The notes: a model not told the origin generated them from the letters alone. Shown: positions 1,252 to 16,636, numbered from the stretch's first letter. The stretch: 64,000 bases of DNA from Lophium mytilinum (GCA_010093605.1 MU004183.1:682001-746000); one strand, 5' to 3'. Program-made: numbers and translations.

Positions 1252-2371
1252 TTAGAATCCAACTTCTGCCTCAAGCAACGCTTCGTGTGCGCCTGGAAAC
1301 AACGGCGCATCCCTAATGATTGACCGCAAGTGCTGGAACTTGCCCTCTCGGTGCCTATTGTTGTCAATTCGGACCCAAGGCTCTGTGCTCATGTCTTCCG
1401 AAAGGTAGATCTTGAGGTACGCGACCTCTGCGCCGGCCTCACGCTGAGCGGAACCATTTGTGGCGTCTTCCACCCTCTCCAGCAGCTGAGCGGCGGAATC
1501 GCAGCCTCGGAGGGCGACGGAGCCAAGAGGCGTGTGATTGTTGAAAAAGTTGATTCGAGTCTGTTCGAAAGCGTCCGTTCCTCCGGTGGGGTAGACCTGC
1601 GTTTGCTTCCCTTTGGCTTGGCTAGCCTGCCCTTTCTGCTCAGCGCGCTGGCGCTTTCGTGGTACGTCGGGTTCTTCCTGTCGTTGACGTTTCTTCTGCG
1701 CAGCTTCTTTCGTCTTCTCAGCACTCGTACCGCTCCGCAGCACAGACTTGTTGATGTTCGGAGTTGGCTCTGGTTCATCATCGGAATCATCCTCCTCGGA
1801 TTGGCTGTCGGGTTGGGGTGCAAGAGGGCCTTTGGTCGCAGCCTTTGGCCTGGCCCGTCCTCTCGCCGGCTCATCGCTTGCTCCGTTTCGCAGGGCTGAT
1901 CGATCGATGTTGGCAGTGGCTGCTGCGGTACCTCGACTCTTCTTCGCAAGCACCAGCTGACGGAGATGTTCTTTGATCCTATGGAAGTCAGTATGATGCA
2001 GTGCTTGTTAGCGGATGAGAAACGACGTACGTCTGCTTGTCGCGTGGATAGATGAGATGCTTCCTGTACAGCGTCTCGGGGTCAGGGTCGCGGAGATGGG
2101 TTCTCTGCACATTGGCAGGCTTGTTGGGCCAGATAGGAGGACCAAGTTTCTCCAGTATCTTGTCGAGCTCTTTGTCGAAGAGCTTGGGGTCATTGCGGTC
2201 GACTGCTGAAGCGCTGAGCTTGGTGAAGAGGTTTCCGATCTCCGTCTTGTAGAGATCGTTCAGCGGCTTGAAGTTGAACTTCGGTCTCTTAATAACGCCC
2301 TCGTCTTTGCCAAAGTGTCGCCAGCCGAGCGCCTCGAAGCACTCATTGACGCCGCGGCGTGGTTTTCCCAT
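1252..2371 (-). CDS. Orphan gene A, 355 aa hypothetical protein (N-terminal domain shared with gene C; acidic and K/R-rich linker; C-terminal domain resembling that of gene B)
   Basis: Exons 2371-2031 and 1978-1252. The intron 2030-1979 (GTACGT...CTGAC...TAG) joins ORFs 1988..2371 and 1252..1953 in frame. Confidence 0.8.
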
Positions 2372-3059
2372 AGCTGAGCAGAAGGCTACAGCTCTGAATG
2401 GAGCGGACTAGTTAGTGAATGTTTGGAGAATCTTCATCGCTCACGACTGCTTATAGCACACATTTTTTCTTGAAAATAAAGCGGCAGGCCGTTCCTAAGC
2501 CGATCTAGCGAGTTGGACTGCACTTACTGGAGAGACAAGCAGGGTTGGTCAAAGCAATCCGTACAATGCGGTGACGACAGTGAAATTGTCCGCTCATGTA
2601 ATGTCGAACAGAGAAGATAGAAAGTTGAGTATAGTTGTGACGCAAGAGGAATTAAACGCGAACAAGGCTGAAATGGAGTCGTCGATCACTTGGAGTCGCT
2701 GTCGACGAGCAAATGCAGGTGGCTGGTGTCGGACGCAGAAGCGGCAGGGATGGTGGAAACGAAAGCGGTCCGTCGAAAGGATATACTGGACTCCCGCGCT
2801 GTCGGGTTAGTCGTGCAGTGTATAGAGAGAGTGTTTGGAAGATGGAGGGAGAGGAAGCGCAGCGCCTGATATAAGTTTCAGGTTGGAAGCTCAGGCAAGT
2901 CCGCGCAGTCTGTAGTTTAACCAGGTCGCACACGCTGTTCTTCACCGGCTGCGACAACGATCCATCTACAATTGCAGCCCCACTCTTGCTATTGTGTTCA
3001 ACTATACTCCTTGGTGAGTCCTGATTGGATCATACAACACAACCATTGTCGACCCGGGC

Positions 3060-3830
3060 CCATCGTTCCTTATTGACAACACCACTTCACCTCTCTATTG
3101 TTTGGCACCGCTCCTTTCCTTCATTTATCAGAGCCCGCCGCCCGCCATCTCGACTGCTGTCCTCAACACCTTCTTTCTCGCACATCGAGCTGCTACATCG
3201 CTCGCAAGCCTTTCGTCAATCCAGTTTTCATTGTCGCATTCGAACCAAGTCCATCACGCTCTTGCCCGACCGACCTTCTCGAGAACACGAACGGCTTCAG
3301 TCCTGCACTTTCAGTTGCTGCTGTAGCGGTAACAACACTGTTGTCATTTCCAACCCTCATTGTCGTTCGCGAATCAAATCCATCACCATCTCCCGACAGG
3401 ATCCTCTGTGTGGCCCTAGTTTCTTCATTCTTGCGCCTTAAGCTGCATCTGGAGCGGCCACGACACTCTCATCGTTTTCAGCCTGCGCTGTTGCTCCCCA
3501 AGCAATTCCATCCCATTCTTGCTCGACACCCTTCCTCTGTATATCTGGACCACCTTCTTCCTGCGCTTCAAGCTGCTTCTGGAGCGGTCACGACAATCTC
3601 ATCATTTTCAACCTTCGCTGTTGCCCCCCAACCAATTCCATCCCAATCTTGCCTGACAGGCTTCCTCTGCGGAACTGGAACATCTTCTTCCTGTGCTTCA
3701 AGCTGCTTCTGTAGCGGTCACGAAGCTCTCATCACTTTCAACTTGGCTCTGGCACCCTCATCAACCCCATCACAGCCTTACAGCCTTGCCCGATCAACTT
3801 TCTGTCAGCATTCCGTTCGCCCTATCAACA
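3060..3830. repeat. Degenerate tandem array, ~130-bp unit, ~5-6 copies
   Basis: GCTGC[T/A]TCTG[G/T]AGCGG[T/C]CACGA at 3442, 3572 and 3702 (exact 130 spacing), with more diverged copies near 3187 and 3315. Confidence 0.85.
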
Positions 3831-4004
3831 GTCTCTCCTTGTAATCTATACCGGTGCATCCTCGTCCATCTCGGATTCCAACGATTCGAGCTGTCACTAG
3901 CTTAAGTGTTTCGCTGTATAGTAAGTTCTTTGCTTCCTCGTTGGAGTGCTGCTCTCGCGCATTCTACATCTAAAGAAGGTCGAGCTAACAATCTGCCCAG
4001 TCTG

Positions 4005-4065
4005 AACCAAGTCCCTTCAACCAGTCCCTTCAACCAATCCCTTCAACCAATCCCTTCAACCAATC
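4005..4065 (+). repeat. 14-bp minisatellite (AACCAATCCCTTCA)x~4 just upstream of the gene B start
   Basis: aaccaagtcccttcaaccagtcccttcaaccaatcccttcaaccaatcccttcaaccaatc. Confidence 0.9.
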
Positions 4066-4080
4066 TCTACTACGACAGAA

Positions 4081-5456
4081 ATGGCACCTGCAATCAAGGA
4101 AGTCGAGTGCTTCGGCGATGCTACCAGGGGAAGCCCGCACTACCATTCTGCGCGCGACTTGCATCGACGTGGCATCTGGATCGGCTATCTGGACGATCAC
4201 AAGAAGAAGTTCGAGGATATGCCGTCATTCCAGGACCTCGCCAAGCGTTACAGGAGTAACATGACGCCGTTTCCGGAGCCTACGGTGGGAGCGAGCGGCA
4301 ATACGAGCTACGCCGTCTGCTTTGGCTGTCATACCAGTGGCCAGGACACGCGCATGATCAAGGTGCTAGACCTTCCATTCACCAACAAGAAGAACGTAAG
4401 GGCTGGTTCCTGCGTTCTTATTTGATCACTTTTAGAACATTTCGTCTAACACAATTCGAGTTGCAGAAAGTCTTGATCATGCCTCTCGAAGACGACAATA
4501 ACAACCGCTTGTTTTGCATCTTGCAACCAGACCCCTTCGAGCGAAAGTTCATCAAGTACGGTTTCTGGCAGGTCGAGGGAGGCTGCTCAAGCTACATCTA
4601 TCTTCTCGGCACCACAGCTTCCAACCAGAGGAAGGGCACCCTCGATGAGATCCGGGCCCTCCGTGTCAACAATCGCCAGCCAGAGGAAGCCGATGAAGCC
4701 AACGCTGCTCCAAAAGCCAAAGCAGCCATCAAAACGTCGAAGAAGCGCACCCGTGATGCTGCCTCTGCGAACGAAGACGGAGGCCCATCCAAGAGGAAGA
4801 AGACAACACCTGTGAATGGGAGATCTGACAGTCCGAAGCTGCCCACCAGCTCCACTTTACGCCAGGACGAGGCAGACCTCGATCGGTTGGTTGCTGCTAT
4901 CGGCAGTGGCAGTCTCCCAAAGCCGGTGAAGCCAAAGCCAGTGAAGCCAGTCCAACGCACGACTCGAAGCTCTGGACCGTTGCCTCCGATCGAGGCCAAC
5001 ACTACTCCCTCCGATCTTCACACTTCAAATTGGTCTCACGAAGCAACTGTGGGCTATCTGGTTGAGGATGACTCCGAGCCTTCAGATGGGCTCTCCAAAG
5101 CTCAAGCTCGACGCGTCCGATTCATGTGGACGTTCGATGCCGATGGCCGCGAAGGCCAGATCCTGCTCTGCCTGGCCGATTGCCCGAATTCGAAGGTATT
5201 CCTCGACCTTTTTGAACAAGAGGCGAATCGGGAGCAGGCGACCAAGGACATCTATGCCAAGGCGAAGAGCTGGTGGGTGGACAGGACTGAGGTTTTGGCA
5301 GGTGGAAAAAAGGAGACGAAGGGCCTGCGAATCACGCCTTCGAATGAGGCGTCGGCCGATGTAGCCTTCAGATTGACGCTGGAGGAGATCGCGAAGTCCA
5401 GACATTGGGAATCTGGCAAGGGAGACTATACGGTCGTCTTGACCCCGATTATCTAA
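4081..5456 (+). CDS. Orphan gene B, 434 aa hypothetical protein with bipartite NLS-like motif (KKRTR...KRKK)
   Basis: Exons 4081-4395 and 4467-5456. The intron 4396-4466 (GTAAGG...CTAAC...TTGCAG) joins the two ORFs in frame. Confidence 0.8.
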
Positions 5457-5780
5457 GAGTGGATTGGGATAGGCGAGATTCAGCGGCTGCTTGTTATTGT
5501 TTATAGCTTGATATCCAGAATTGAATGCGTTCTTCAGCACTTTTGATACATTGAGATTGCTAGCTGTGGTCCTTCAGTGTGTCGCAAAGAATAGATTGAT
5601 TGTTGTTCTCTTGCTACAATACTCCGCCGTAAGTCTAGGCACACAGATCTATCACTACTTGGCTTCAATCTTGCTCACTCGACACCACTGTAGGGGGTAG
5701 CCTGGCTGCTAAGCAGCTACTTGGTCAAGAGGCAGTCTAATCTGCACTACTTGAGACTCGACACTCCTTTAGTTAGTAGC

Positions 5781-8700
5781 CTAGGAGACTAATGCCCTCG
5801 GCGGTACAAACAAAGCCATACAATACCTCTTCAGAATGTCTGTAAACTCCGAATCCATATCTGTGTCGTTGGCAGCATTGATAACGTCCACTAGCAACTG
5901 AACGGAACCACCAGCAACACCCTTGCTAACCTTTCGCCACCGTAATATGAGCGTACGTCGAACATGATTAATCTCTATGGAGCGTTTCAGGCCCTCAATG
6001 CCTGTCTCAACAGCAAAATCTGCAGTATGGGCGATTGAGATGGCACGTTCCATCTTCCTCATCCCGATGAAATACTGCAAAGCCTTGGTCCGAGGATCAC
6101 GCAACGGGTTCTGCAGTTCCTCTCTTGACTCTGCCGCGAGTTTCCAGAGCTTCTCCAGCAGCTTTTCAAGGCGGACCTGCTTTCGATAGCGGTTCTGGGG
6201 TTCCGTGCGACTTCGGTATAGCTGCTGTTGCTTGACGAGGTCGTGCATGTTGATCAACTCCAATTCAATCAGATTTCCGAAGTAGAACCTCAATGTTTCC
6301 TCGTCATCCTCGCTCTCATCGTCCTCGCTCTCTGTGTCGTCAGATTCGTCGAAATCTAACAGTGTAGCCTTTAAAGCGTCGTCGTCGTCATATCGAGGCT
6401 GTGGGTTCTGACTAACGTTGCCTCCAATTTGTGCGTTTCGATCTTCCTGGTGAATGCGGCGGTCTTGGGAAGGCTTTGATAGCGGTCCCGCGCTCCCTTC
6501 GGCCTGCGGGCTTCCACTTCTCCGAGGGGTGTTGTTGCGATCTTTAGCAAGAGGCTCCGATGTCTGTCTAGCACTGCTTTTGGCTTGTGCATTTCTGTCT
6601 CTTTCGTGAGCGCAGCTGCTTTTCTCTTGGGTAGACACCAATGCACGTCCAGTACTGCCTTCGGCTTGTGCACTCCAGCCTTCCTGATGAGCATCGCTAG
6701 CTTTAGGCGTAGGCGAAGCTTCCAAGGGCTTCTGGAATCCGCTTGTGCCGCCGCGCTCGGTAAGGACCGATGGCTGGCTCACAGTTGGAGCTTCGTTTGT
6801 AAGAGGCCGTTCGCCCTGAATGCGCGTTGGAGCATCATGGATTGGAGGATGCTCAGCTGAAGTCTGAGTGGCTGTCGAAGGTTTTTTCGGAGAGGAAGTC
6901 CGACATTGAGGGTGTACTGTAGTCGCGTTGATACGAGACCGTTCAGTATATGACCCACCCGCCGTGTAAGTGTCTTTTGGAGTAGATGAACCTTGAGGAG
7001 AACTAGTTGAAGTATCGTTGTTCGGAGACTGAGTAGCTGATGACTGAGTATCTGTCGAAGCCCTATCGCGGAGGAGGGATCCGTCTCTAGAGACCGAAGA
7101 AGACTCGGGAGAGCCTTGTGGAGTAAGAGTCTGTGCAGGCGATGTTCGGTGATCTTCCGGAGTACTTGAATTAGCAGCTCGAAGCTTTCCCGTCCTGTCG
7201 TCGAAGAACGTTGCGGAGACTGGTCTTATATCAATGGAATCACTTGAGGCTTGCCTCTCAGATGATGGTAGAAAAGAAGCACTGCTAGGGGGAGACATAT
7301 CATCTTCCGACGATCCAATGTCGCTAGTAGGGGACATACGTAGCACAATATGCGGAGTGCAAGAAACGGGACGATTTGTTGGTGTTGGCCCAGCTCGTTG
7401 TGCTGTGCTCGGTGTATTGTTCTTTTGTGCCAACGTCTCGACTCTGATATGCTCCTTTGCATATTGTAGGTGTGATAGTGTTTTTCGTTGAGCTTCTACA
7501 CCAACAGTAGATGATAATGCACCGTGTTGCATCTCTTTGGCAGTCCCAAACACTCCATCGATAGACTGTAAACCTTTTGGTGCCTGGCGAGGTTGAGTGG
7601 GCCGTGTATACGACAACTGAATACATCCAGTTGGAAACATCGGAGCGATCGGGGCTCGAGGTTGCGGACGTTGAGGTTGGGCGCTGCCCGTAGCGACTGA
7701 GTTCAGGGATCGAAATTGAGCATTTTCGTTGGAAATTTCATCGATCGGTGATGTACCTGACGTCTTTTGTGTCTTTCTTGACGACATCGTCTCTTCCACG
7801 GCTGCACGTTTACGCTCGTGGGTCGCGAGAAAAGCGGATGACACGTCTTGCCCGGTATCAAAAGTACTAGGAGATGAAGAAGTTATGATGCCCCAGCTGG
7901 TGAGGATGTTACTTGCTTTATGTCTTAGCTGCAGCTTCTTGTCCCCAGGAAAGGGATCCAGTTTCTTGATGTGCTTCAGGACGCTGTCAATTTTAGTCGT
8001 CCTAATAATTTCCATCTCTAAATTGGGATACTCCTCCAGCAGCCTCAACCAACTAGACATGATGGCCTTCTCATGTTCTTTGGGGGGGTGTAATCGTCCG
8101 CTGTCCAGTTTCCATCCAAATCCTCTCTGCAGTCGCCGTCGAATATGGATGACTGGTGGTTTTAGCACAATATAGAGATACGCAACGAGGAGAATGCTTA
8201 CTCTGTTGTTGCATACTTCTGACCTGCTTGGCGCTATCTTTCAACCAAGGCAACCGCACTATGACTATACGCCCGACCTTTTTATTGTCGTCTGAGTCGG
8301 GTAACTCTTGATGCTCTACTGTGTAAACAGCTTCATCCCAGATCTTGGGGCACGACGGTAAAGGAATTACGCCCACTGCCTTTCCATTATTGGCCTGTGC
8401 CGCCCTTCGTAGGAGCGCCCATTGTCGTATGAGGCGTTTGATTCTACGGCAAGCAATTAGCAAGCTCTGTAAAGTAAGTGGACTGATGCTTACTCTAGCT
8501 CATCCTGCGGATAGTACAGGTCTTTTGTATAGTGCTCATGTGTAATGTCGCCGCCTATTTTCAAGAGGTGACCACGGTTACTTCCCCATATGGTGAGGCC
8601 GTGTGTTTCAAGGAAGCTTTCGATGTGTGCCTCGAACAGTGGATGTGCTGTGTTGTTGGAAAATGCCACTTCATTCTTGGCAAGATCGTCAATATGCGCA

Positions 8701-8879
8701 TATTCGTCCGGTAGAGAATGAGCTAGGGTGGTGACGAAACGGTCGAGTATCTTAAGCATTTCGTTATCGAACCTTGCTCTCGCTTTGCGCGAGACGTTTC
8801 GATTAACTAGGCCCAAGGCCTCGATACATGCATGTGTTCGAGCATTCGGGAGGTCGGGTATGGTCGCGCCCATGGGCAT
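5781..8879 (-). CDS. Orphan gene C, ~999 aa: N-terminal domain shared with gene A, TFIIS-N-terminal (TND)-like helical domain, long S/T/P-rich disordered region, helical C-terminus
   Basis: Exons 8879-8494, 8443-8202 and 8152-5781. Introns 8493-8444 and 8201-8153 both start GTAAGC and have CTAA branch sites. Spliced length is 3000 nt in one frame. An alternative ATG lies at 8873. Confidence 0.8.
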
Positions 8880-10044
8880 TCTTTCCAAATCTGTAAACTA
8901 TGAGTCCGTGGACAAGCCTTCAACTTTGTTTAGGGCTATTTAATACCTTTCAGGTAAGGAAAAGATACAAGTCTTGCCACGATGATATGAGGGGAGGGAG
9001 TTGGAGTACCCTAAATAATTAGGTACTCTAGGGAGTAATGCGAGAAGTAGTGAAAGCTGTGCACGAGCTCACAGTCTAGTTGTGAACCGTTAAGATAAGC
9101 AGACCGAGACTAATAGAGTTCGATGACCTTTAGCGGCTGAAGATGCGCGCTAGAAACAAGAGTTCACTCGCAGGAGTTGAAGAGTGTTGAGCATGAAGGC
9201 GGAGGGGGTTGGAATGGCTGGCCACTTTGTTTCAACCTATGATTGTTTCAATCGTTGGCCTTGAGGGGGTGGTCTCTTTCGGCCCCCTCAAGTGGTACTC
9301 TTTGACCACTATCAGTGGAAAATGACAGATCACTTTGCCCCGTCGCGGGAGGAGACGTAAATACAAACGGGTAGAGGCGCGCATGTCCTGCCACTTAGCT
9401 GTCGGTTCCCGCGTTAGTTCACGGGAACACTCACGCATCGCTAGGATGCCCTGGGAAACATATCCCTACGTGATCTACTCTTTCATTACTTAATCCTGTC
9501 TCGGTGGTCTTATTGTTGGTGTGTGCGTCTATTGGTAAGTTGTCGCTTGCGGAGCGTCCGCAAGGCTGAAACCCTTTGGCGTCAACATGCAGATTGTGCC
9601 CTCGGTTTTCCGCCAGGCAGCGTGCCGGCACGGACGATTGCAAGCCAACACAACCAGCCTACCAAGGCGTCAGTGAGAAACGCCTATGCATGCGCGTGTC
9701 AAACAAGCAAAAAGGCCCATACTTTGGCCTCCGCGCCTTCCCCGGACGCCCACGCCGCATGACTGCAGGAGGGCGACGTCTAGAGTTTTTCGAACAAATC
9801 AGATCACCTGTAGGGTTACTCAACCTGCTCTCTGGGGAGATAAGGGCGTTTTCACGCCATTGCGTGTCTCACGCACGGTCCTGGGAGCCGCTTCACGGCC
9901 CGTTTTTTCGTGATAAACTGAAGGATCACAGACGTTGTTAACCGGGCGTCAAGACCCATAAAACCTGCGTGTGATTCACGACATGAAGATGTGTGAGTTG
10001 CCTTAGCGTTCGGATTGAAGATGTAGTACAGACCTGGTTAGATC

Positions 10045-10578
10045 TAGCTTGTGAAGAACTTTACAGCACATTCTGGAATTTTCTGGTGCACTAGAGGACC
10101 CCAACCGGTAATAACTAGGGGCCAGAACTCGTATATACTGCATCTAACTTAGGTACGAAAGTTGAGCTGCTCTGGATTTAAGGGAGTAGTAACATTACTC
10201 TCATTTGGCCTCTGGAGACGCTTACATCGCACCCCAAGAGTTTGGAGTGTACTGGAGGACTCCAGACGGCACCATCCTGGTGTCAAAAGCCCTTCATGAT
10301 GCTGCTAATTTCCGGACAGAAGATGCATGGAAAAGGTGGTCTAATGTAGCCTTTAGAGAACTTGACATCTTGACCTGACTTTTTACAGTGTGTCAAAGAA
10401 CCGCAGACGGTGACACTATATCAGAATAATAACGCCCTCTATTTCAGCCTGCGGAGAACTTTACATCGTAGTACAACCTTTCAGAATGCGCCGAAGGACT
10501 TCGAACAGCGGTATAGGGTGTTGCAAAAGACTGGTTCGATGTAGCCTGCGAAGAGCTTTACGTCGTGTTTCTAGAAAC
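10045..10578. repeat. Degenerate array, 5 units (spacings 161, 141, 98, 97 bp)
   Basis: Core .AGCCT...[G/A]GAGAACTT[T/G]ACATC...GGAC...AGACGG begins at 10045, 10206, 10347, 10445 and 10542. Confidence 0.7.
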
Positions 10579-11159
10579 AAATCTATTCAGTTACCGTCTT
10601 TCTATTAGCAACTTCATTACGAACTCAATGAGGGAGAGATTGGGAGACAAACGTAGGTGTCGATATCGGTAGCTAGGAAAAGGTCTTGCTACGCTTGCTT
10701 TTCTTGCTCTATGTACATGCTTCAAGTTATGAGTGAAGGGATAGATTGAGCGTGAAAGCCTTCAAGACAAGTGTTTCAACGCGTGTTGGAAGTAGCCTTA
10801 CCCCATAAGCTGTGGTACTTTGCGGTTGCCCCCTAAGCTATGAGGCAAGGAGTCTAATGCGCCACGCCCCCTAGTCACGATGAGTTGAACGTTATTCATG
10901 TGAAATGGGGTGGATCGACAGTGTCAAGTCGATCCCAAGGTCCCTCCTGAACCCTCGACCACGATCGACAATGAATGAAGTCGGATAGAATAGCTTCTAG
11001 GTAACATGAGAATATTGCTTCTCTAAACTTACAGCTTTAATTGCAAGCGTGAAATGGCTTCGCCTATACAGCTTACCACCATTCTCATAGAGTGTGTGGG
11101 TGATCGCACAGCACTTTTCTATTACAATTAGCCTATGACACCTAAGGCCTTTACGGTGA

Positions 11160-11760
11160 AGCAGCATCTCGAGTGCCGAGAAGCACTGGTATGGGACAAG
11201 AGCTGAAGCTGTGATCAAGGTAGTAGAGCGATAAGTCAATGACTTTGTCACCCAAGAAGGCCCAGTAAGAGCAGTAGAGCAAGGGAAGCACTACTTCGCC
11301 AGGAAAACCCTGGCCACTCCAGGCAGAGGCGACACCATTGAGCAAGAAGTTGAAGCTGGTAGGAAGCGTACACATTGCCCTACCACCCTCCCTTTACCCA
11401 TCTCTGTACTTGTGGTCTTGAGACCTCCGTAAAGGCTCTTATCTGCCCCTAAAGCCCTCGTCGCCACCGTTTACGACATTGGCATCGGCTAGGATTACAC
11501 CCAACCTTACAGTCTCGACCTTGTCTACGGCTACCCCACCGCCTTCTTCCAAACTCCCTTCATGCTAGTCCAGGGGTGTGGCTCCTCTACACTTTCTCTA
11601 CAGCTACGGGGCGCTAGGGGAGAGTTTGTGGGCGGAGAAAGTATCGGTAAGGGAGGCTGAGGGGGTCGAAAGGCGTTGGAGAAGGAGCAGATTGAAAAGT
11701 GAGGACGCGAAGGCAAGGATGCGGGCGTTTGCGGAGCAGGCGCGTAGGTCGAAGCTATGA
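11160..11760 (+). pseudogene. Degraded peroxisomal enoyl-CoA isomerase/hydratase (crotonase fold, Eci1-like) relic
   Basis: Broken frames give ...VIKVV..GKHYFARKTL...PKALVATVYDIGIG*DYTQPYSLDLVYGYPTAFFQTPFMLVQG..GSS and a C-terminus ...SEDAKARMRAFAEQARRSKL* (PTS1). Internal stops and frameshifts are present. Confidence 0.55.
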
Positions 11761-11897
11761 GGATTAATAGGTGTATGTTAGAGGCTCTATCATAGATTAC
11801 AGAGTCTAATTGATTTTAAGGCTGCCTTAAAGTAATGGCTAAAGAGATACATCCACGTTGCTTCTGATAGAGTGATCCACGGCACGTGCATGGGTCA

Positions 11898-11922
11898 TTT
11901 GCGAACTCCTGGAGTTCGCAAA
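11898..11922. promoter_or_regulatory. Perfect 25-bp palindrome ~340 bp upstream of BNA6
   Basis: TTTGCGAACTCC-T-GGAGTTCGCAAA (12-bp arms, 1-nt spacer). The regulatory role is inferred only. Confidence 0.4.
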
Positions 11923-12258
11923 GTGCACGGAGCGTTATCGATAAGGAAAGTGCCTCGGGCTTCACGAAGTAGTCACGCTCCTCTTTCAACTTTTCCCTTG
12001 CCTCAACCCCACACCTTTAGGCTACTAACTCATCCGAATAGAATATACAGATGAGCACTGTACTAGCATAATACCTTACTGCGTAGTTCTGAAGGCTTTG
12101 GTTCATACAGCATCACGCCGGCCGCGGATCGGACAAGACACCCTTCGACCCGAGCTCATCAACTTCTATTACTACGAGACTGTGTACTGTTAGCGAACAA
12201 GCTACTCAAAGACTCACCATTCTAAAAGGAAAACTTGTAATATTTCCACCAATCTTTC

Positions 12259-13397
12259 ATGATGGCCACCGTAGAAGGCGCCCCAGCACATGGAGCTGTT
12301 GCCCATCTACTTCCGCAAACATACAAGCGACTGGTATCAGAGTGGCTAGAAGAGGACACACCAAGCTTCGACTATGGAGGATTTGTGGTTGGCGATGAGA
12401 TCTCTGATGCTAAGCTGCTGGGAAAAAGTGAGGTTAGTGGACCTCAATTCATCAGTTGTCAAATGGACCAATGACTCGTGCTACCTGATCTACAAGCTCT
12501 GACGAGTTCTTTTTGTGTCTCATTCTAACGCTGAGTACAGGGCATAGTCGCAGGTGTTCCTTTCTTCGACGAGGTTTTCAAGCAACTAGATTGCACGTAT
12601 GTTTTTCTACCTGCAATGACCCTGTTACTGTTCTGATCATTGCCATTGCTACTTTCAGCGTCGAGTGGCATGTTAAGGAGGGAGAAGCACTCAAGCCGAT
12701 CATGCATTGTGCTACAGTACGAGGACCTGTCAGAAAGCTTCTTCTTGGAGAACGAGTGGCGTTGAACACTCTGGCTCGGTGCTCAGGCGTGGCTTCAAAG
12801 TGAGTACTGTCTCTCTAGTGTTCCAAATAGACTTGTAATCAGCGAATCCCTAGATCAGCCAGGCTACTTGCGCTTCTACGAAAAGCTGGATATTCCAATA
12901 TCCTGGCTGGCACGCGAAAGACAACCCCTGGCTTCCGCCTCGTAGAGAAGTACGGGATGCTCGTGGGTGGATGCGATCCCCATCGGCACGATCTTTCTGC
13001 TATGACCATGCTAAAAGACAATCACATTGTCGCAGCTGGCAGCATCACTTCCGCGGTACGGGCTGCCAAGTCAGCGGGCGGTTTTGCGATCAAGGTCGAA
13101 GTCGAGTGCCAGAGCTTCGAAGAAGCTGACGAAGCGATTGCAGCTGGAGCGGACGTCGTGATGCTGGACAACTTCACAGGGGAAGGCGTGAAGATTGCCG
13201 CTTCACAACTGAAAGATAAATGGGGAAGGGGTACGGCCGACAGGAAAGCGTTCTTGGTAGAGGTTAGCGGAGGACTAACGGAAGAGAACGTGGAGGCCTA
13301 TGTCTGTTCGGATGTCGACGTCATCTCTACGAGCAGTATCCACCAAGGCGTTCAGCACGTCGACTTCTCGTTGAAGATTGTGCCAAAGGGCAAATGA
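12259..13397 (+). CDS. BNA6: Nicotinate-nucleotide pyrophosphorylase (quinolinate phosphoribosyltransferase), 304 aa
   Basis: Exons 12259-12432, 12541-12596, 12659-12799 and 12854-13397. Motifs [66 protein letters not shown]. Confidence 0.97.
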
Positions 13398-14042: not shown

Positions 14043-14787
14043 GTTCTTGACGGTAGTAGAGCTTTGACGTTGAGGTATCGCAGCCGGCGACCAGGGCGAG
14101 GGCTCGCGCTTCTTTTCAATGCTGAGAAGCTCTCGGGACGGACTCGTGAGCGCGCTCCGAGGCAAGACACAGCAAGCGCTGGAACCTCGGCGAAACCCTT
14201 CGGACTTTGGTCGAGTAACGGGCTTATTGGCCGGTTTGGAGTTGCTGTCGTACTCAAGGTGCTCGGTACCAAATATGTAGGTGAAGCGGTGGTAGCTGGA
14301 TTCCCTTTTTCCGAGAGCTGGACGCGCTTGGAAACACATCTGAATATGAGAAGGTCGGACAGGGAAGACATGCTTTTCTTCTTTTATGGTACGCATGATA
14401 GATCAGTGGCAGGGGGTCTGGTGGCTCACGGACATCGGACGTCGGTTTGGGGCGCTGCCATCCCACGTCGTGGTGTTGAAGTCCGCATTACGCCCCGCCA
14501 ATCATGCTGCGTATGCTTTAGTTCAAGGGAACAGCTGCTACAACGAGTATCGTGTCGTTGGCATCTTCGCCTGCACCGTACCCACCTGGGATATGAGAGA
14601 CGTAAGCCCTCAGCCTTGCAAAAGGGCTGAAAGCACTTAGTCCGCATATGGTCAAGCGTGTGTCGGCGCAAGGCGATGCTAGCGGCGTTTCAAGGCAGCG
14701 AGCCTCCGATCTGCCGCAACCAACCCTCTTCTCATCATGACTCCAGATGTTGTCTTACCCCCTTAATGCCCCCGAGCGTTGTCGACG

Positions 14788-16636
14788 ATGAGCGCTCCTC
14801 CGACGTCGAGTGCAAAGCCAGTTGAGCGCGTTAACTTAGCATGTCTACAATGCCGCGCCCGCCATGTCAAGTGCGATTCAAGCCAGCCAATCTGCAATAG
14901 GTGTAGGCGAGATGGCAAAGCTTGTGATTACGCAAAGTCCCGGAGAGGAGGACTCGACAAAGCTGCTCTTGCACAGAGAAGACTTGCACTGCTGCACCAA
15001 CAACAGGAACAGTCCGTGACGCCCAATCAGACCCCCAAGTCCTGCACATCATCGTCGAGCGGGGGTAAAAGCGATCAGTTGGAGCGTTCCGACGCCCCGT
15101 CCCTGGGATTGTACGATTCGATATCTATCGGCTCCACCGAGATCACCTTTGCCGTCGATTCCGACAGACTGGTCCAACTGTACTTTGAGTATTTTCACGC
15201 CGGTCATCCTTTTCTATTGCCTCAACAATTCTTTACGCAAAGACTTCAATCCGGAGCGCAGGACATGAAAATCTTAGAGGCGGTTGTACAATATGTCGGA
15301 TCTCGTTACGCACCATGGGCTACTTCGGAGGTGTACAGAAGAAAGGCTGAAAGTGCACTGGCAGCTAGTGAGCATGAAGCAACGCCATTTCGTGTCCAGG
15401 CCCTTCTCCTCTTCTCAATCACCAATCATTACTGCAGTGAATGGGGCATGGGCTCTACCATTCTCGAAACTGCAATTTCCTTAGCTTTAGCTTTGGGAAT
15501 GAATACCCACGAATTTTCAGGACAGTATGGGGAAGGAAGTCCTGTTCTTGAAGAAAGCTGGAGAAGGACTTTTTGGAGTTTGTACGTCACAGAGCAGCAC
15601 TATGCAGTCGTCAAAAGAATCATATCTTTTACTCTCAGGGACCTTCCTGGGGTTTCTGTTGGCCTTCCTTGTGAGGAGATCGAGTATGAGTCTGGGGTGC
15701 GTATAAATCCTATTTCTCTTTGGCGCGATTGCTAAGCTCCTCAAGGTGATCCCTCAACCAAAGACTCTCGCGGACTACGATATAAGAGAGTTAGATGAAG
15801 TTGAGGTTGTTTTCTCGTCATTTACATATCTTATAGATGGTCTCCGCATTGTCTCCGAGCTCATGAGAAATTTCGGAGACTTCAAAGCTTCGTGGGAAGA
15901 AACGACCGTTTACACTGATGCCAGACTCTCTGCGTGGAGCTCATTACTTCCAGCCTGCAAGAAGGAGTCAATCCTTCCCGATGGAAGCGTTGACGAGGTC
16001 ATGTTCTTTGCCCACCTCACGATTCTCATACTTACCGTGCAAATCCATCGACCTGCATCGTCTCTTGCGTGGAGCACCGAGGAATGGCAAACTGCTTTCA
16101 TACCCCGTCCTCCAATGGGAATGGTTCAGATAAAGCCAGAGAGACGTAACGTCAATACTGCGAAAGTACTCAGGGCCTTGGAAAAGCAAACGCAGCTTCT
16201 CACTCTCCCTTCTCCCTTGATACTTCACGCACCCTTCACGATGTGTATAGTCGCGGGATTTGCTGCCGCGCACGTCGCATCTTGCACTCTGTTTCCTGAC
16301 GACAGACGCCTAGCAGTGGGAAGAGACCGATTGCGTCTATGCATCGGTGCGATCAGAGCATGCGCTGATATCTGGCCACTGAATCGTCATATGCTGCGAG
16401 ACGCACAGAACATCGCAAAAGGAACGCTATCTCCACCAACGATCATGTCACACCAAACGGCGAGAGCCCCTCTGGAATTTGAGGTTCCAGAAGTCACTAA
16501 GCAAACGAACGAACTCGATTTCGACTTTAGCGTTGGTCCCATGTCCGAAGTTGATATATTCAGCGCATTGGAAGTGCCTGGCATGCCTCAAGACTGGAGC
16601 GCTCTCCTCGATCCCTCGAGTCTCCCGACCGTGTGA
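14788..16636 (+). CDS. Zn(II)2Cys6 transcription factor with fungal middle-homology region, 599 aa
   Basis: ACLQCRARHVKCDSSQPICNRCRRDGKACDY; YFEYFHAGHPFL; ESWRRTFWSLYVTE. Exons 14788-15696 and 15746-16636. Confidence 0.93.

What the first reader, a model, noticed from the sequence alone, without database searches (positions are those of the whole stretch)
1252..8879. Three-gene orphan module built by domain shuffling; genes A and C share an N-terminal domain and intron
Seen: gene A (CFEALG...LFDKELDKILEKLGPPIW...RTHL...YRKHLIYPRDKQT|IKEHLRQL) aligns with gene C (CIEALG...LFEAHIESFLETHGLTIW...RGHL...YTKDLYYPQDELE|IKRLIRQW). Both have a ~50-bp phase-2 intron at the same aligned codon, which strongly indicates paralogy despite low identity. 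Gene A also appears to share its C-terminal domain with gene B. All three have long disordered linkers with basic NLS-like patches, and they sit between the conserved genes USP and BNA6. Inference: a locus of fast-evolving nuclear proteins linked through homotypic domains (A-C via the N-domain, A-B via the C-domain). It could be an undescribed chromatin/transcription complex or a genetic-conflict module.
Basis: partly seen in the sequence, partly recalled or inferred. Interest (0 to 1): 0.72.

Follow-up and report, generated by a model that had tools for sequence, protein, structure and literature searches.

The report
Conserved fungal cluster of modular nuclear-type proteins
Three neighbouring, expressed genes of the fungus Lophium mytilinum belong to a previously undescribed but widely conserved gene cluster whose proteins share a new N-terminal domain and small ubiquitin-like (PB1-type) pairing domains, so they probably work together, although their function is still unknown.

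Summary
The core observation holds. Genes A (355 aa) and C (999 aa) share a ~130-residue N-terminal domain (Smith-Waterman 72 against 27.6±4.5 for shuffles, 0 of 2000 reach it; hhalign E 1e-4). Both carry a phase-2 intron (52 and 50 nt) in the same aligned codon. Spliced transcript contigs confirm every modelled intron in A, B and C.

"Orphan" is wrong. An exhaustive profile search found 49 proteins; all 27 that carry an organism name are Dothideomycetes. The A/C split is ancient: C lies outside a 30-member A clade with 98/95 support.

The module is real and conserved. Four independent metagenome contigs show A(-) and B(+) head-to-head, followed by up to three N-domain paralogues. Accession numbers place family members within 4 genes of each other in 6 of 6 species where this could be compared.

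A's C-terminal domain folds as a PB1-type beta-grasp (Z 8.9 to Cdc24p PB1). Similarity between the A and B C-domains is invisible pairwise. It appears only weakly (hhalign E 0.002, in register) with deeper profiles, plus a low-grade structural lead.

Function is unknown. The best guess is a nuclear hetero-oligomeric scaffold. A genetic-conflict reading is unlikely.

The parts
1252..2371 (-). Gene A coding region. Exon 1 is 2031-2371, the 52-nt phase-2 intron is 1979-2030, and exon 2 is 1252-1978 including the stop. It encodes the 355-aa protein BU16DRAFT_613943.
   Evidence: The spliced translation equals P0001. The RNA contig joins 1977|2030.
1933..2356 (-). N-domain of A (residues 6-129), interrupted by the conserved intron.
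   Evidence: N-domain HMM E 3.6e-35. AF2 gives helices 8-15, 35-54, 66-80 and 112-125 at pLDDT mostly above 90.
1255..1581 (-). PB1-like beta-grasp domain of A (residues 247-355).
   Evidence: AF2 gives a beta-beta-alpha-beta-beta-alpha-beta order at pLDDT 79-97. In VIA-align, the first 11 of 50 rows are PB1 domains; the best is 1q1o at Z 8.9, rmsd 2.5, 88 aligned.
2394..2527 (-). 134-nt intron in the 5' UTR of A.
   Evidence: Joint 2393|2528 with CT..AC ends in an RNA contig.
2922..2962 (.). Gap between the outermost ends of the A (to 2921) and B (from 2963) transcript contigs. It is the presumed shared bidirectional promoter.
   Evidence: Contig extents. Contigs cannot prove true transcript starts.
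2963..4080 (+). Long 5' UTR of B with an 80-nt intron (3921-4000). It holds a 130-bp x 2.5 tandem repeat (3423-3742) and a 13-bp x 4.6 repeat (4005-4065).
4081..5456 (+). Gene B coding region. Exon 1 is 4081-4395, the 71-nt phase-0 intron is 4396-4466, and exon 2 is 4467-5456. The product is 434 aa; it is annotated as the 423-aa BU16DRAFT_237826 with another donor.
   Evidence: RNA joint 4395|4467.
5070..5453 (+). C-terminal domain of B (last 128 residues), probably a PB1-like beta-grasp.
   Evidence: The Atlas's own model of the orthologue aligns to PB1 and RA clusters over 288/303-427, all below the tool's bar. hhalign against the A PB1 profile gives E 0.0022 in register.
5781..8879 (-). Gene C coding region. 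Exon 1 is 8494-8879, intron 8444-8493 (50 nt, phase 2), exon 2 8202-8443, intron 8153-8201 (49 nt, phase 1), and exon 3 5781-8152. It encodes the 999-aa protein BU16DRAFT_613945.
   Evidence: The spliced translation equals P0003. RNA joints 8152|8202 and 8443|8494.
8401..8843 (-). N-domain of C (residues 13-144), interrupted by the conserved intron.
   Evidence: N-domain HMM E 1.3e-26. AF2 pLDDT 84-97, with helices 11-21, 40-55, 80-98 and 127-146.
7896..8247 (-). Helical region of C (residues 196-295) labelled TFIIS N-terminal domain by UniRef. It is absent from the other long family members.
   Evidence: Source name. Atlas leads to Med26, LEDGF and a PWWP-protein cluster. No counterpart in the alignment. 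AF2 confidence is low. No Pfam hit.
5790..6311 (-). C-terminal six-helix bundle of C (residues 824-997).
   Evidence: AF2 helices at pLDDT 50-82. Only generic helical-bundle matches, Z up to 10.1. Marginal similarity to the C-domain of the long family: hmmsearch 4.8 bits and hhalign E 0.021.
8891..8946 (-). 56-nt intron in the 5' UTR of C.
   Evidence: Joint 8890|8947. The shorter side is only 54 nt.

Best explanation
A, B and C are the Lophium version of an old, syntenic gene cluster of Pleosporomycetidae-type fungi. The cluster encodes mostly disordered, probably nuclear adaptor proteins built from small interaction domains.

Shown. A and C carry a previously undescribed ~125-residue helical N-domain that arose by ancient duplication and still holds its ancestral phase-2 intron. 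A ends in a PB1-type beta-grasp. A and B are head-to-head neighbours in five DNA-level cases. All three genes are transcribed and spliced.

Inferred. A and B are co-expressed from a shared promoter. They pair through their C-terminal PB1-like domains, the usual role of PB1 domains, which bind front to back. The shared N-domain gives A and C (and the extra long paralogues of other species) the same docking activity, either towards a common partner or towards each other. The K/R-rich linkers act as nuclear localisation signals. C's helical bundle and its TFIIS-N-like insert add self-association and a link to the Pol II elongation machinery. Together they would form a hetero-oligomeric nuclear scaffold.
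For: N-domain homology and the shared intron. In 35 N-domain ORF matches (33 from metagenome loci, 2 from the window as controls) the ORF breaks at the same HMM position. For 24 of these a simple GT..AG model gives a phase-2 intron of 45-114 nt followed by the conserved continuation. Twelve database fragments end exactly at that column with residues that NNG codons can encode.

Family breadth: 49 proteins at E<=1e-3. Of 30 proteins looked up, 27 carry organism names, from 19 species, all Dothideomycetes (lineages checked for 4 species).

Tree: the A clade (30 rows, 98/95) and the long clade (21 rows, 97/86) are separate. Lophium C sits on its own branch.

Synteny: Lophium A/B/C are KAF2500146/147/148 and Mytilinidion B/A are KAF2813794/795. 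Cucurbitaria, Zopfia, Paraphoma and Amniculicola members lie 1-4 accession numbers apart on contigs of the same length. At DNA level, loci L003, L006, L018 and L019 each hold A(-) and B(+) head-to-head, 0.76-0.94 kb between the outermost HMM matches, followed by N-domain long genes. That is 4 of the 5 loci with at least 8 kb of upstream flank. All 12 loci with at least 2.3 kb of upstream flank show a second long paralogue upstream of the matched one.

PB1 fold of A. B C-domain. Expression, splicing and transcript ends about 40 bp apart.

P. nodorum SNOG_08168 (P0025) is annotated as one protein with an A part and a B part (hhalign E 2.4e-8 for the B part).
Against: No experiment or prediction here shows binding, nuclear localisation or any function.

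Neither A nor B matches the Pfam PB1 profile. The beta-1 lysine of canonical PB1 domains is not conserved in the A family.

B's fold rests on another service's low-confidence model (mean pLDDT 0.43, all rows under its bar) and on an hhalign probability of only 13%.

The TFIIS-N label of C is a source name. Pfam, PDB sequences and fold searches on a low-confidence model did not reproduce it.

No orthologue of C as a whole was found, and its C-terminal link to the long family is marginal.

The single-protein P. nodorum model needs A and B on one strand, unlike the head-to-head order seen everywhere else. It may therefore be a mis-merged annotation, or it may reflect an inversion.

Synteny alone can persist without physical interaction.
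Confidence: 0.5

Rival explanations
1. The genes are ancient tandem paralogues plus an unrelated neighbour. They stay adjacent only through slow genome rearrangement or shared regulatory DNA, and they act independently without forming a complex.
For: No test here shows binding. B shares no significant pairwise sequence similarity with A or C. The number and orientation of long paralogues differ between lineages: Lophium has one, on the minus strand, while L019 has three on the plus strand.
Against: The head-to-head A-B pair is kept in 4 of 5 informative metagenome loci as well as in Lophium, and adjacency is kept in Mytilinidion. A and B are annotated as one protein in P. nodorum. PB1-type domains are pairing modules (passages of PMC8200828).
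Confidence: 0.25
2. They are fast-diverging orthologues of subunits of a universal nuclear machine, for example kinetochore, chromatin-modifier or Mediator-type subunits, whose sequences are recognisable only within this fungal class.
For: The architecture is small folded domains plus very long disordered linkers. There is no Pfam or PDB sequence match. One long family member gives a faint CENP-H match (E 0.0068, below the Pfam cut-off).
Against: Several paralogues sit in one cluster, which is unusual for subunits of universal complexes. Nothing beyond chance-level hits links them to any known subunit. No family member from outside Dothideomycetes appeared in a scan of 1.84 billion representatives.
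Confidence: 0.15
3. It is a genetic-conflict module of the toxin-antidote or spore-killer type, evolving fast and restricted to a few strains.
For: The proteins have no annotation, the linkers are poorly conserved (A linker), and paralogue number varies between lineages.
Against: Orthologues and gene order are kept across Mytilinidiales, Gloniales, Pleosporales and Zopfiaceae. The folded domains are 79-90% identical between two genera. No extra copy lies elsewhere in the 64-kb window.
Confidence: 0.05

Closest known systems
PB1 (Phox/Bem1) domain scaffold proteins: Cdc24p/Bem1p, MEKK3-MEK5, Par6-aPKC, p62/NBR1, plant ARF-Aux/IAA and NLP
   Same: A's residues 247-355 adopt the beta-beta-alpha-beta-beta-alpha-beta beta-grasp, and their nearest solved structures are PB1 domains (Z 8.9-6.4 for the first 11 rows). 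An acidic, family-conserved 'PEDMS ... D/E' stretch sits in the beta3-beta4 loop, where PB1 domains carry the OPCA motif. This placement is my own inference and from passages of PMC8200828.
   Different: There is no sequence match to Pfam PF00564. The beta-1 lysine is not conserved. The partner domains (N-domain, B's N-terminal half) are unknown elsewhere. Pairing has not been shown.
TFIIS N-terminal domain (TND) proteins: TFIIS, IWS1, Med26, Elongin A, LEDGF/HRP2
   Same: UniRef labels C as TFIIS N-terminal domain-containing. Language-model and structure look-alikes of residues 150-310 include Med26, LEDGF and an ascomycete PWWP-protein cluster, with TM 0.57 over 167-300. TNDs read short motifs in disordered elongation factors (abstract of PMC9987994, as seen in the listing).
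   Different: The label was not reproduced by Pfam at E<=10, by PDB sequences or by fold search. AF2 confidence there is 26-64. The region is missing from the 12 other long family members aligned.
Taxonomically restricted ('orphan') fungal genes
   Same: There is no Pfam family, no characterised relative and 'hypothetical protein' annotation throughout.
   Different: The genes are conserved across at least three orders plus Zopfiaceae of Dothideomycetes, with conserved intron position and gene order. Only C as a whole lacks a detected orthologue.

Membership tests
PB1 domain (Pfam PF00564), gene A C-terminus | Beta-grasp of about 80-110 residues with the order beta1-beta2-alpha1-beta3-beta4-alpha2-beta5 | tested here: met
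   AF2 gives E255-260, E263-269, H276-287 (plus H291-295), E301-305, E315-319, H324-337 and E348-354, at pLDDT 79-97.
PB1 domain (Pfam PF00564), gene A C-terminus | Nearest solved structures are PB1 domains | tested here: met
   In VIA-align wide, rows 1-11 of 50 are all PB1 domains: 1q1o at Z 8.9, rmsd 2.5, 88 aligned; 4ic7_B at 8.5; 2g4s at 8.3. Other ubiquitin-like folds follow from Z 6.3. Foldseek's best is Cdc24p PB1 at E 0.031.
PB1 domain (Pfam PF00564), gene A C-terminus | Sequence match to the Pfam PB1 profile | tested here: not met
   No PF00564 hit for exon 2 at E<=1 or for P0001 and P0002 at E<=10.
PB1 domain (Pfam PF00564), gene A C-terminus | Conserved beta-1 lysine and/or acidic OPCA motif that make the front-to-back salt bridges (passages of PMC8200828) | tested here: inconclusive
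   A conserved acidic 'PEDMS' and a following D/E-rich turn lie in the beta3-beta4 loop. The beta-1 position varies (N, H, Y, R). No residue-level superposition was available.
PB1 domain (Pfam PF00564), gene A C-terminus | Homo- or heterotypic PB1-PB1 binding | not testable with these tools
   This needs a binding assay or a confident co-structure.
PB1-like beta-grasp, gene B C-terminus | Beta-grasp fold homologous to that of A | tested here: inconclusive
   The Atlas's own model of orthologue P0005 aligns to PB1 clusters (102 and 98 residues; 303-427) and to an RA cluster, all under its bar. hhalign of 16 against 7 sequences gives E 0.0022, probability 13%, 74 columns in register. Shallower profiles were negative.
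TFIIS N-terminal domain (TND; Pfam Med26 PF08711), gene C residues ~196-295 | Match to the family's sequence profile | tested here: not met
   No Pfam family at E<=10 for residues 211-317 or for exon 2, and none for exon 3 at E<=1. The only positive is the UniRef name.
TFIIS N-terminal domain (TND; Pfam Med26 PF08711), gene C residues ~196-295 | Five-helix bundle resembling solved TNDs | tested here: inconclusive
   AF2 predicts five helices (196-221, 237-250, 254-261, 264-272, 281-295), but at pLDDT 26-64. Fold searches list no TND, though the model is poor and other domains fill the lists. The Atlas leads are Med26 0.82, LEDGF 0.79 and a structure row at TM 0.57.
Orphan / species-restricted genes | No homologue outside the species or genus | tested here: not met
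   A has full-length relatives in Glonium, Lepidopterella, Zopfia and several Pleosporales. B has relatives in Mytilinidion, P. nodorum and 4 metagenome loci. C's N-domain has 21 long-clade relatives. No orthologue of C as a whole was found.
New N-domain family (defined here) | About 125 residues with four conserved helices, the motif E-x-L-G-L ... G-P-x-I-W ... R-x-H-L ... Y-x-x-D-L-x-Y, and a phase-2 intron just after it | tested here: met
   The HMM finds 56 instances in 52 proteins; A scores 3.6e-35 and C 1.3e-26. The same four helices appear in both AF2 models. Exceptions without the intron are one A-like gene (L003) and the two-domain gene of L019.

The most novel reading that the evidence does not exclude
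A Pleosporomycetidae-specific, syntenic module of three to five genes (the A-B divergent pair plus one to three long N-domain paralogues) encodes a so far unknown hetero-oligomeric nuclear complex. The complex is held together by cryptic PB1 domains and a new helical N-domain. In Lophium a captured TFIIS-N/LEDGF-like reader domain couples it to Pol II elongation factors. This would be a lineage-specific transcription or chromatin scaffold kept as a gene cluster for hundreds of millions of years.
Probability: 0.2. Interest if true: 0.65.

Novelty: new variant of a known kind. Interest (0 to 1): 0.5.

Why it matters
Conserved clusters in filamentous fungi are nearly always metabolic. A cluster of paralogous adaptor-type proteins that has been stable across orders would be unusual. 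It would point to co-regulation or co-assembly of a lineage-specific nuclear complex in a class that contains many crop pathogens.

The work also defines a new domain family with no Pfam or PDB relative, together with a diagnostic intron. It uncovers PB1-type folds that sequence profiles miss. It corrects the annotation of gene B, and probably that of P. nodorum SNOG_08168.

Tried and rejected
- **Complex prediction.** The job paired the A PB1-like domain (238-355) with the B C-domain (296-423). It returned 'no answer' (score 0.00 against a mark of 0.34; the alignments were not used). This is no evidence either way.
- **N-domain fold.** No row of the 50 shown for model A (all Z>=4.8) or for model C fell on the N-domain alone. 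Foldseek gave nothing at E<=0.001.
- **C's C-terminal bundle.** It gave only generic helical-bundle matches: a designed protein at Z 10.1 and Atg23 at Z 9.8.
- **Link between C's C-terminus and the long-family C-domain.** It is marginal only: 4.8 bits and hhalign E 0.021.
- **Profile searches against PDB sequences.** The A family gave nothing better than E 9.4. B gave nothing better than E 1.
- **Whole genome.** It is not held, so paralogues outside the window could not be sought.
- **RNA runs.** No holder is on record as RNA. The one run listed ('RNA?' is a guess) proved to consist of spliced contigs.
- **Metagenome scans.** The first scan, with the A profile, found no relative.
- **Earlier notes of this scan.** There is nothing on this locus. 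One unrelated note concerns another piece of the genome.
- **Literature.** 'SNOG_08168' gave 0 papers. 'PB1 domain' plus 'Dothideomycetes' gave 0. 'Lophium mytilinum' gave 22 papers; none of the 10 listed titles concerns this locus.
- **Promoter scan.** The sigma-70-type scan is irrelevant for a fungus.

Full report
**Organism and gene models.** Protein look-ups identify the window as Lophium mytilinum, class Dothideomycetes, order Mytilinidiales. I built three gene models from the sequence.
- A is 2371..2031 + 1978..1252 on the minus strand.
- B is 4081..4395 + 4467..5456 on the plus strand.
- C is 8879..8494 + 8443..8202 + 8152..5781 on the minus strand.

The spliced translations of A and C equal the database proteins P0001 (355 aa) and P0003 (999 aa) exactly. 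My B model has 434 aa. The annotated P0004 (423 aa) uses an earlier donor. The Mytilinidion orthologue P0005 keeps the 11 extra residues.

**Expression and splicing.** One public run holds 88% of the sampled words. Its kind is only guessed as RNA, but its contigs are spliced. They join across the A intron (52 nt), the B intron (71 nt; 4395|4467, which supports my B model) and both C introns (49 and 50 nt). They also join across a 5'-UTR intron in each gene: 134 nt in A, 80 nt in B and 56 nt in C. All have GT..AG ends on the gene's strand. The A contig reaches 2921 and the B contig starts at 2963. The two divergent transcripts therefore come within about 40 bp of each other, which suggests one bidirectional promoter. 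Contigs cannot prove true transcript ends.

**The A-C observation.** Several tests support the N-terminal similarity:
- BLASTP of the first exons gives E 2e-4.
- hhalign of the A pair against C gives E 1.1e-4 over 61 columns (A 62-127, C 79-142). These columns run straight across the intron site.
- A Smith-Waterman score of 72 compares with 27.6 +/- 4.5 for 2000 shuffles, and none reaches it.

Both introns are phase 2. They split the aligned codons T114 and E130, just before the shared I-K-x-x-(L/I)-R-Q motif. AF2 models of both proteins place the same four helices in the domain at high confidence: A 8-15, 35-54, 66-80 and 112-125; C 11-21, 40-55, 80-98 and 127-146. This part of the finding is confirmed.

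**Not orphans.** No Pfam family matches any piece. An exhaustive profile search of 1.84 billion representatives nevertheless found 49 proteins at E<=1e-3, of which 29 are at E<=1e-10. I looked up 30 proteins, and 27 carry organism names, from 19 species, all annotated as hypothetical proteins. The species are:
- Lophium, Mytilinidion and Lepidopterella (Mytilinidiales);
- Glonium (Gloniales);
- Zopfia (incertae sedis);
- fourteen species that I know as Pleosporales (order recalled, not checked), among them Parastagonospora nodorum, Bipolaris maydis, Boeremia and Ascochyta.

Lineages were checked for four species. Two architectures recur.
- The A type is about 330 aa, with the N-domain, a linker and a conserved C-domain.
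- The 'long' type has the N-domain (twice in four proteins), a long linker and a ~220-residue helical C-domain.

An N-domain HMM finds 56 instances in 52 proteins. In a maximum-likelihood tree of 52 instances (four shorter than 100 residues were dropped), the A clade has 30 rows with support 98/95 and the long clade has 21 rows with support 97/86. Lophium C sits alone on a long branch between them. The A/C duplication therefore predates the split of these orders. It is not a recent event at this locus.

**The intron is ancestral.** Nine A-clade and three long-clade database fragments, which are prokaryote-style ORF calls, end exactly at the intron column. Their last residues are E, M, R, T, V or A. 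All of these can be encoded by NNG codons, as expected for a codon split as NN|GT.... I also examined DNA of 20 metagenome loci together with the window.
- 35 N-domain ORF matches break at the same HMM position.
- A simple GT..AG search recovers a phase-2 intron of 45-114 nt, followed by the conserved continuation, in 24 of these. The 24 include the two window genes as positive controls and the A-like genes of three loci.
- One model came out in phase 0 and is probably false.
- Ten matches gave no model. Most are of one paralogue type that my motif did not fit.
- Three N-domains are uninterrupted: one A-like gene in L003 and both domains of a two-domain gene in L019.

**The module is conserved.** GenBank protein accessions are consecutive for A, B and C in Lophium (KAF2500146/147/148). 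This matches the window order and validates accession distance as a proxy for gene order. The other comparable cases are:

| Species | Family members | Accession distance |
|---|---|---|
| Mytilinidion | B and A (KAF2813794/795) | consecutive |
| Cucurbitaria | a two-N-domain long gene and an A-like gene | 4 |
| Zopfia | family members | 3 |
| Amniculicola | family members | 3 |
| Paraphoma | family members | 1 |

In every case the members lie on contigs of the same length. That is 6 of 6 species for which two members from one assembly were named.

Direct DNA evidence came from a metagenome scan with a long-family alignment, which returned 20 loci. I searched six-frame ORFs of these loci with my four HMMs.
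- L003, L006, L018 and L019 each show an A-like gene on the minus strand. In three of them both the N-domain and the PB1-type domain are present; in L003 the contig end cuts the gene.
- A B-like gene on the plus strand starts 0.76-0.94 kb away, head to head.
- Two long genes follow, and in L019 also a third with two N-domains.
- These four come from different identity groups (42-66% to the query). They are 4 of the 5 loci with at least 8 kb of upstream flank.
- The fifth, L004, shows another N-domain ORF instead.
- All 12 loci with at least 2.3 kb of upstream flank show a second long paralogue upstream of the matched one.

The five-gene order in L019 fits the accession distance of 4 in Cucurbitaria. 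Lophium keeps the A-B pair but has a single long gene, C, on the opposite strand. No further N-domain lies in the 64-kb window.

**A and B.** P. nodorum SNOG_08168 (P0025, 691 aa) consists of a complete A-like protein followed directly by a B-like sequence that starts near B residue 66 (hhalign E 2.4e-8 for the B part). This is either a true fusion or a merged annotation. Either way the two genes are adjacent there and on one strand, unlike the head-to-head order elsewhere.

A's C-terminal domain (247-355) is predicted with pLDDT 79-97 as beta-beta-alpha-beta-beta-alpha-beta. Its 11 best structural matches among 48,161 chains are all PB1 domains: Cdc24p at Z 8.9, rmsd 2.5 and 88 aligned; MKK5 at 8.5; NBR1 at 8.3; MEKK3 at 8.2. 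Other ubiquitin-like folds rank below them. Foldseek agrees weakly, with a best E of 0.031.

After I added the metagenomic homologues, an A profile of 16 sequences and a B profile of 7 align over 74 columns at E 0.0022 (probability 13%). Every secondary-structure element is in order. The two profiles share a cysteine at the start of helix 1 and a phenylalanine in helix 2. Separately, the Atlas's own model of the B orthologue aligns to PB1 and RA clusters over residues 288/303-427, but all rows are below that tool's bar. I put the chance that B ends in a homologous beta-grasp at about two in three.

**C's other parts.** Residues 150-310 have no counterpart in the 12 other long proteins aligned. 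UniRef calls C a TFIIS N-terminal domain protein. Atlas look-alikes include Med26, LEDGF and an ascomycete PWWP-protein cluster, with TM 0.57 over 167-300. However, Pfam, PDB sequences and fold searches did not reproduce the label, and AF2 confidence there is low. Residues 295-815 are predicted disordered. Residues 824-997 form a six-helix bundle at pLDDT 50-82 that matches only generic bundles. Their similarity to the long-family C-domain is marginal but in register.

**Mechanism.** PB1 domains pair front to back through a basic and an acidic surface (passages of PMC8200828). TNDs read short motifs in disordered elongation factors (abstract of PMC9987994, seen in the listing). From the anatomy I infer a nuclear adaptor system with four elements:
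- A and B are co-expressed and paired through beta-grasp domains.
- A and C, and the extra long paralogues elsewhere, share one docking activity through the N-domain.
- K/R-rich linkers serve as localisation signals.
- C adds a self-associating bundle and possibly a transcription-elongation contact.

None of these steps is shown. The rivals are independent paralogues held together by synteny, unrecognised subunits of a universal complex, and a conflict element. They are weighed above, and the last is the least compatible with the conservation found.

**Verdict.** The locus is a new domain family in a conserved, non-metabolic gene cluster with cryptic PB1-type domains. It is of moderate interest.

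Noticed in passing
window 2963-4080: B has an unusually long 5' UTR, about 1 kb after removal of an 80-nt intron. It contains 2.5 copies of a 130-bp tandem repeat (3423-3742) and 4.6 copies of a 13-bp repeat (4005-4065) just upstream of the start codon.
   Followed up: partly
window 5670-5719: A ~50-nt stretch between the 3' ends of B and C is covered by a separate contig of much higher depth (bin depth 155.9 against 11-18 around it). The contig has unlike sequence on both sides. It may be a short repeat or part of another abundant transcript.
   Followed up: no
window 4081-4395 (B residues 1-105): B's N-terminal half keeps C10, H20 and a C-x-x-C-H motif (C80, C83, H84) in Lophium and Mytilinidion. 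C-R-G-C is kept in P. nodorum and in the four metagenome homologues. This could be a small zinc site. The fold of this half is unknown.
   Followed up: partly
window 4330-4395: The public annotation of B (BU16DRAFT_237826, 423 aa) appears to use a wrong splice donor. RNA contigs and the orthologue support 11 more residues (VLDLPFTNKKN).
   Followed up: yes
window 14767-16636 (+): There are ORFs with a Zn2Cys6-type cysteine pattern (CLQCRARHVKCD...CNRCRRDGKAC) followed by a fungal transcription-factor-like region. Beyond them, at 17.5-19.5 kb, lie ORFs that look like a membrane transporter. I read these from the ORF list only.
   Followed up: no
L019:15755-18382 and proteins P0032, P0040, P0041, P0042: One long paralogue type carries two N-domains in tandem and lacks the conserved intron in both. 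The two copies form separate clades in the tree, so the internal duplication is old.
   Followed up: partly
window 8900-12400: About 3 kb between C and the QPRTase gene holds no ORF of 100 codons or more apart from two overlapping low-complexity frames (9445-9941). It was not examined further.
   Followed up: no
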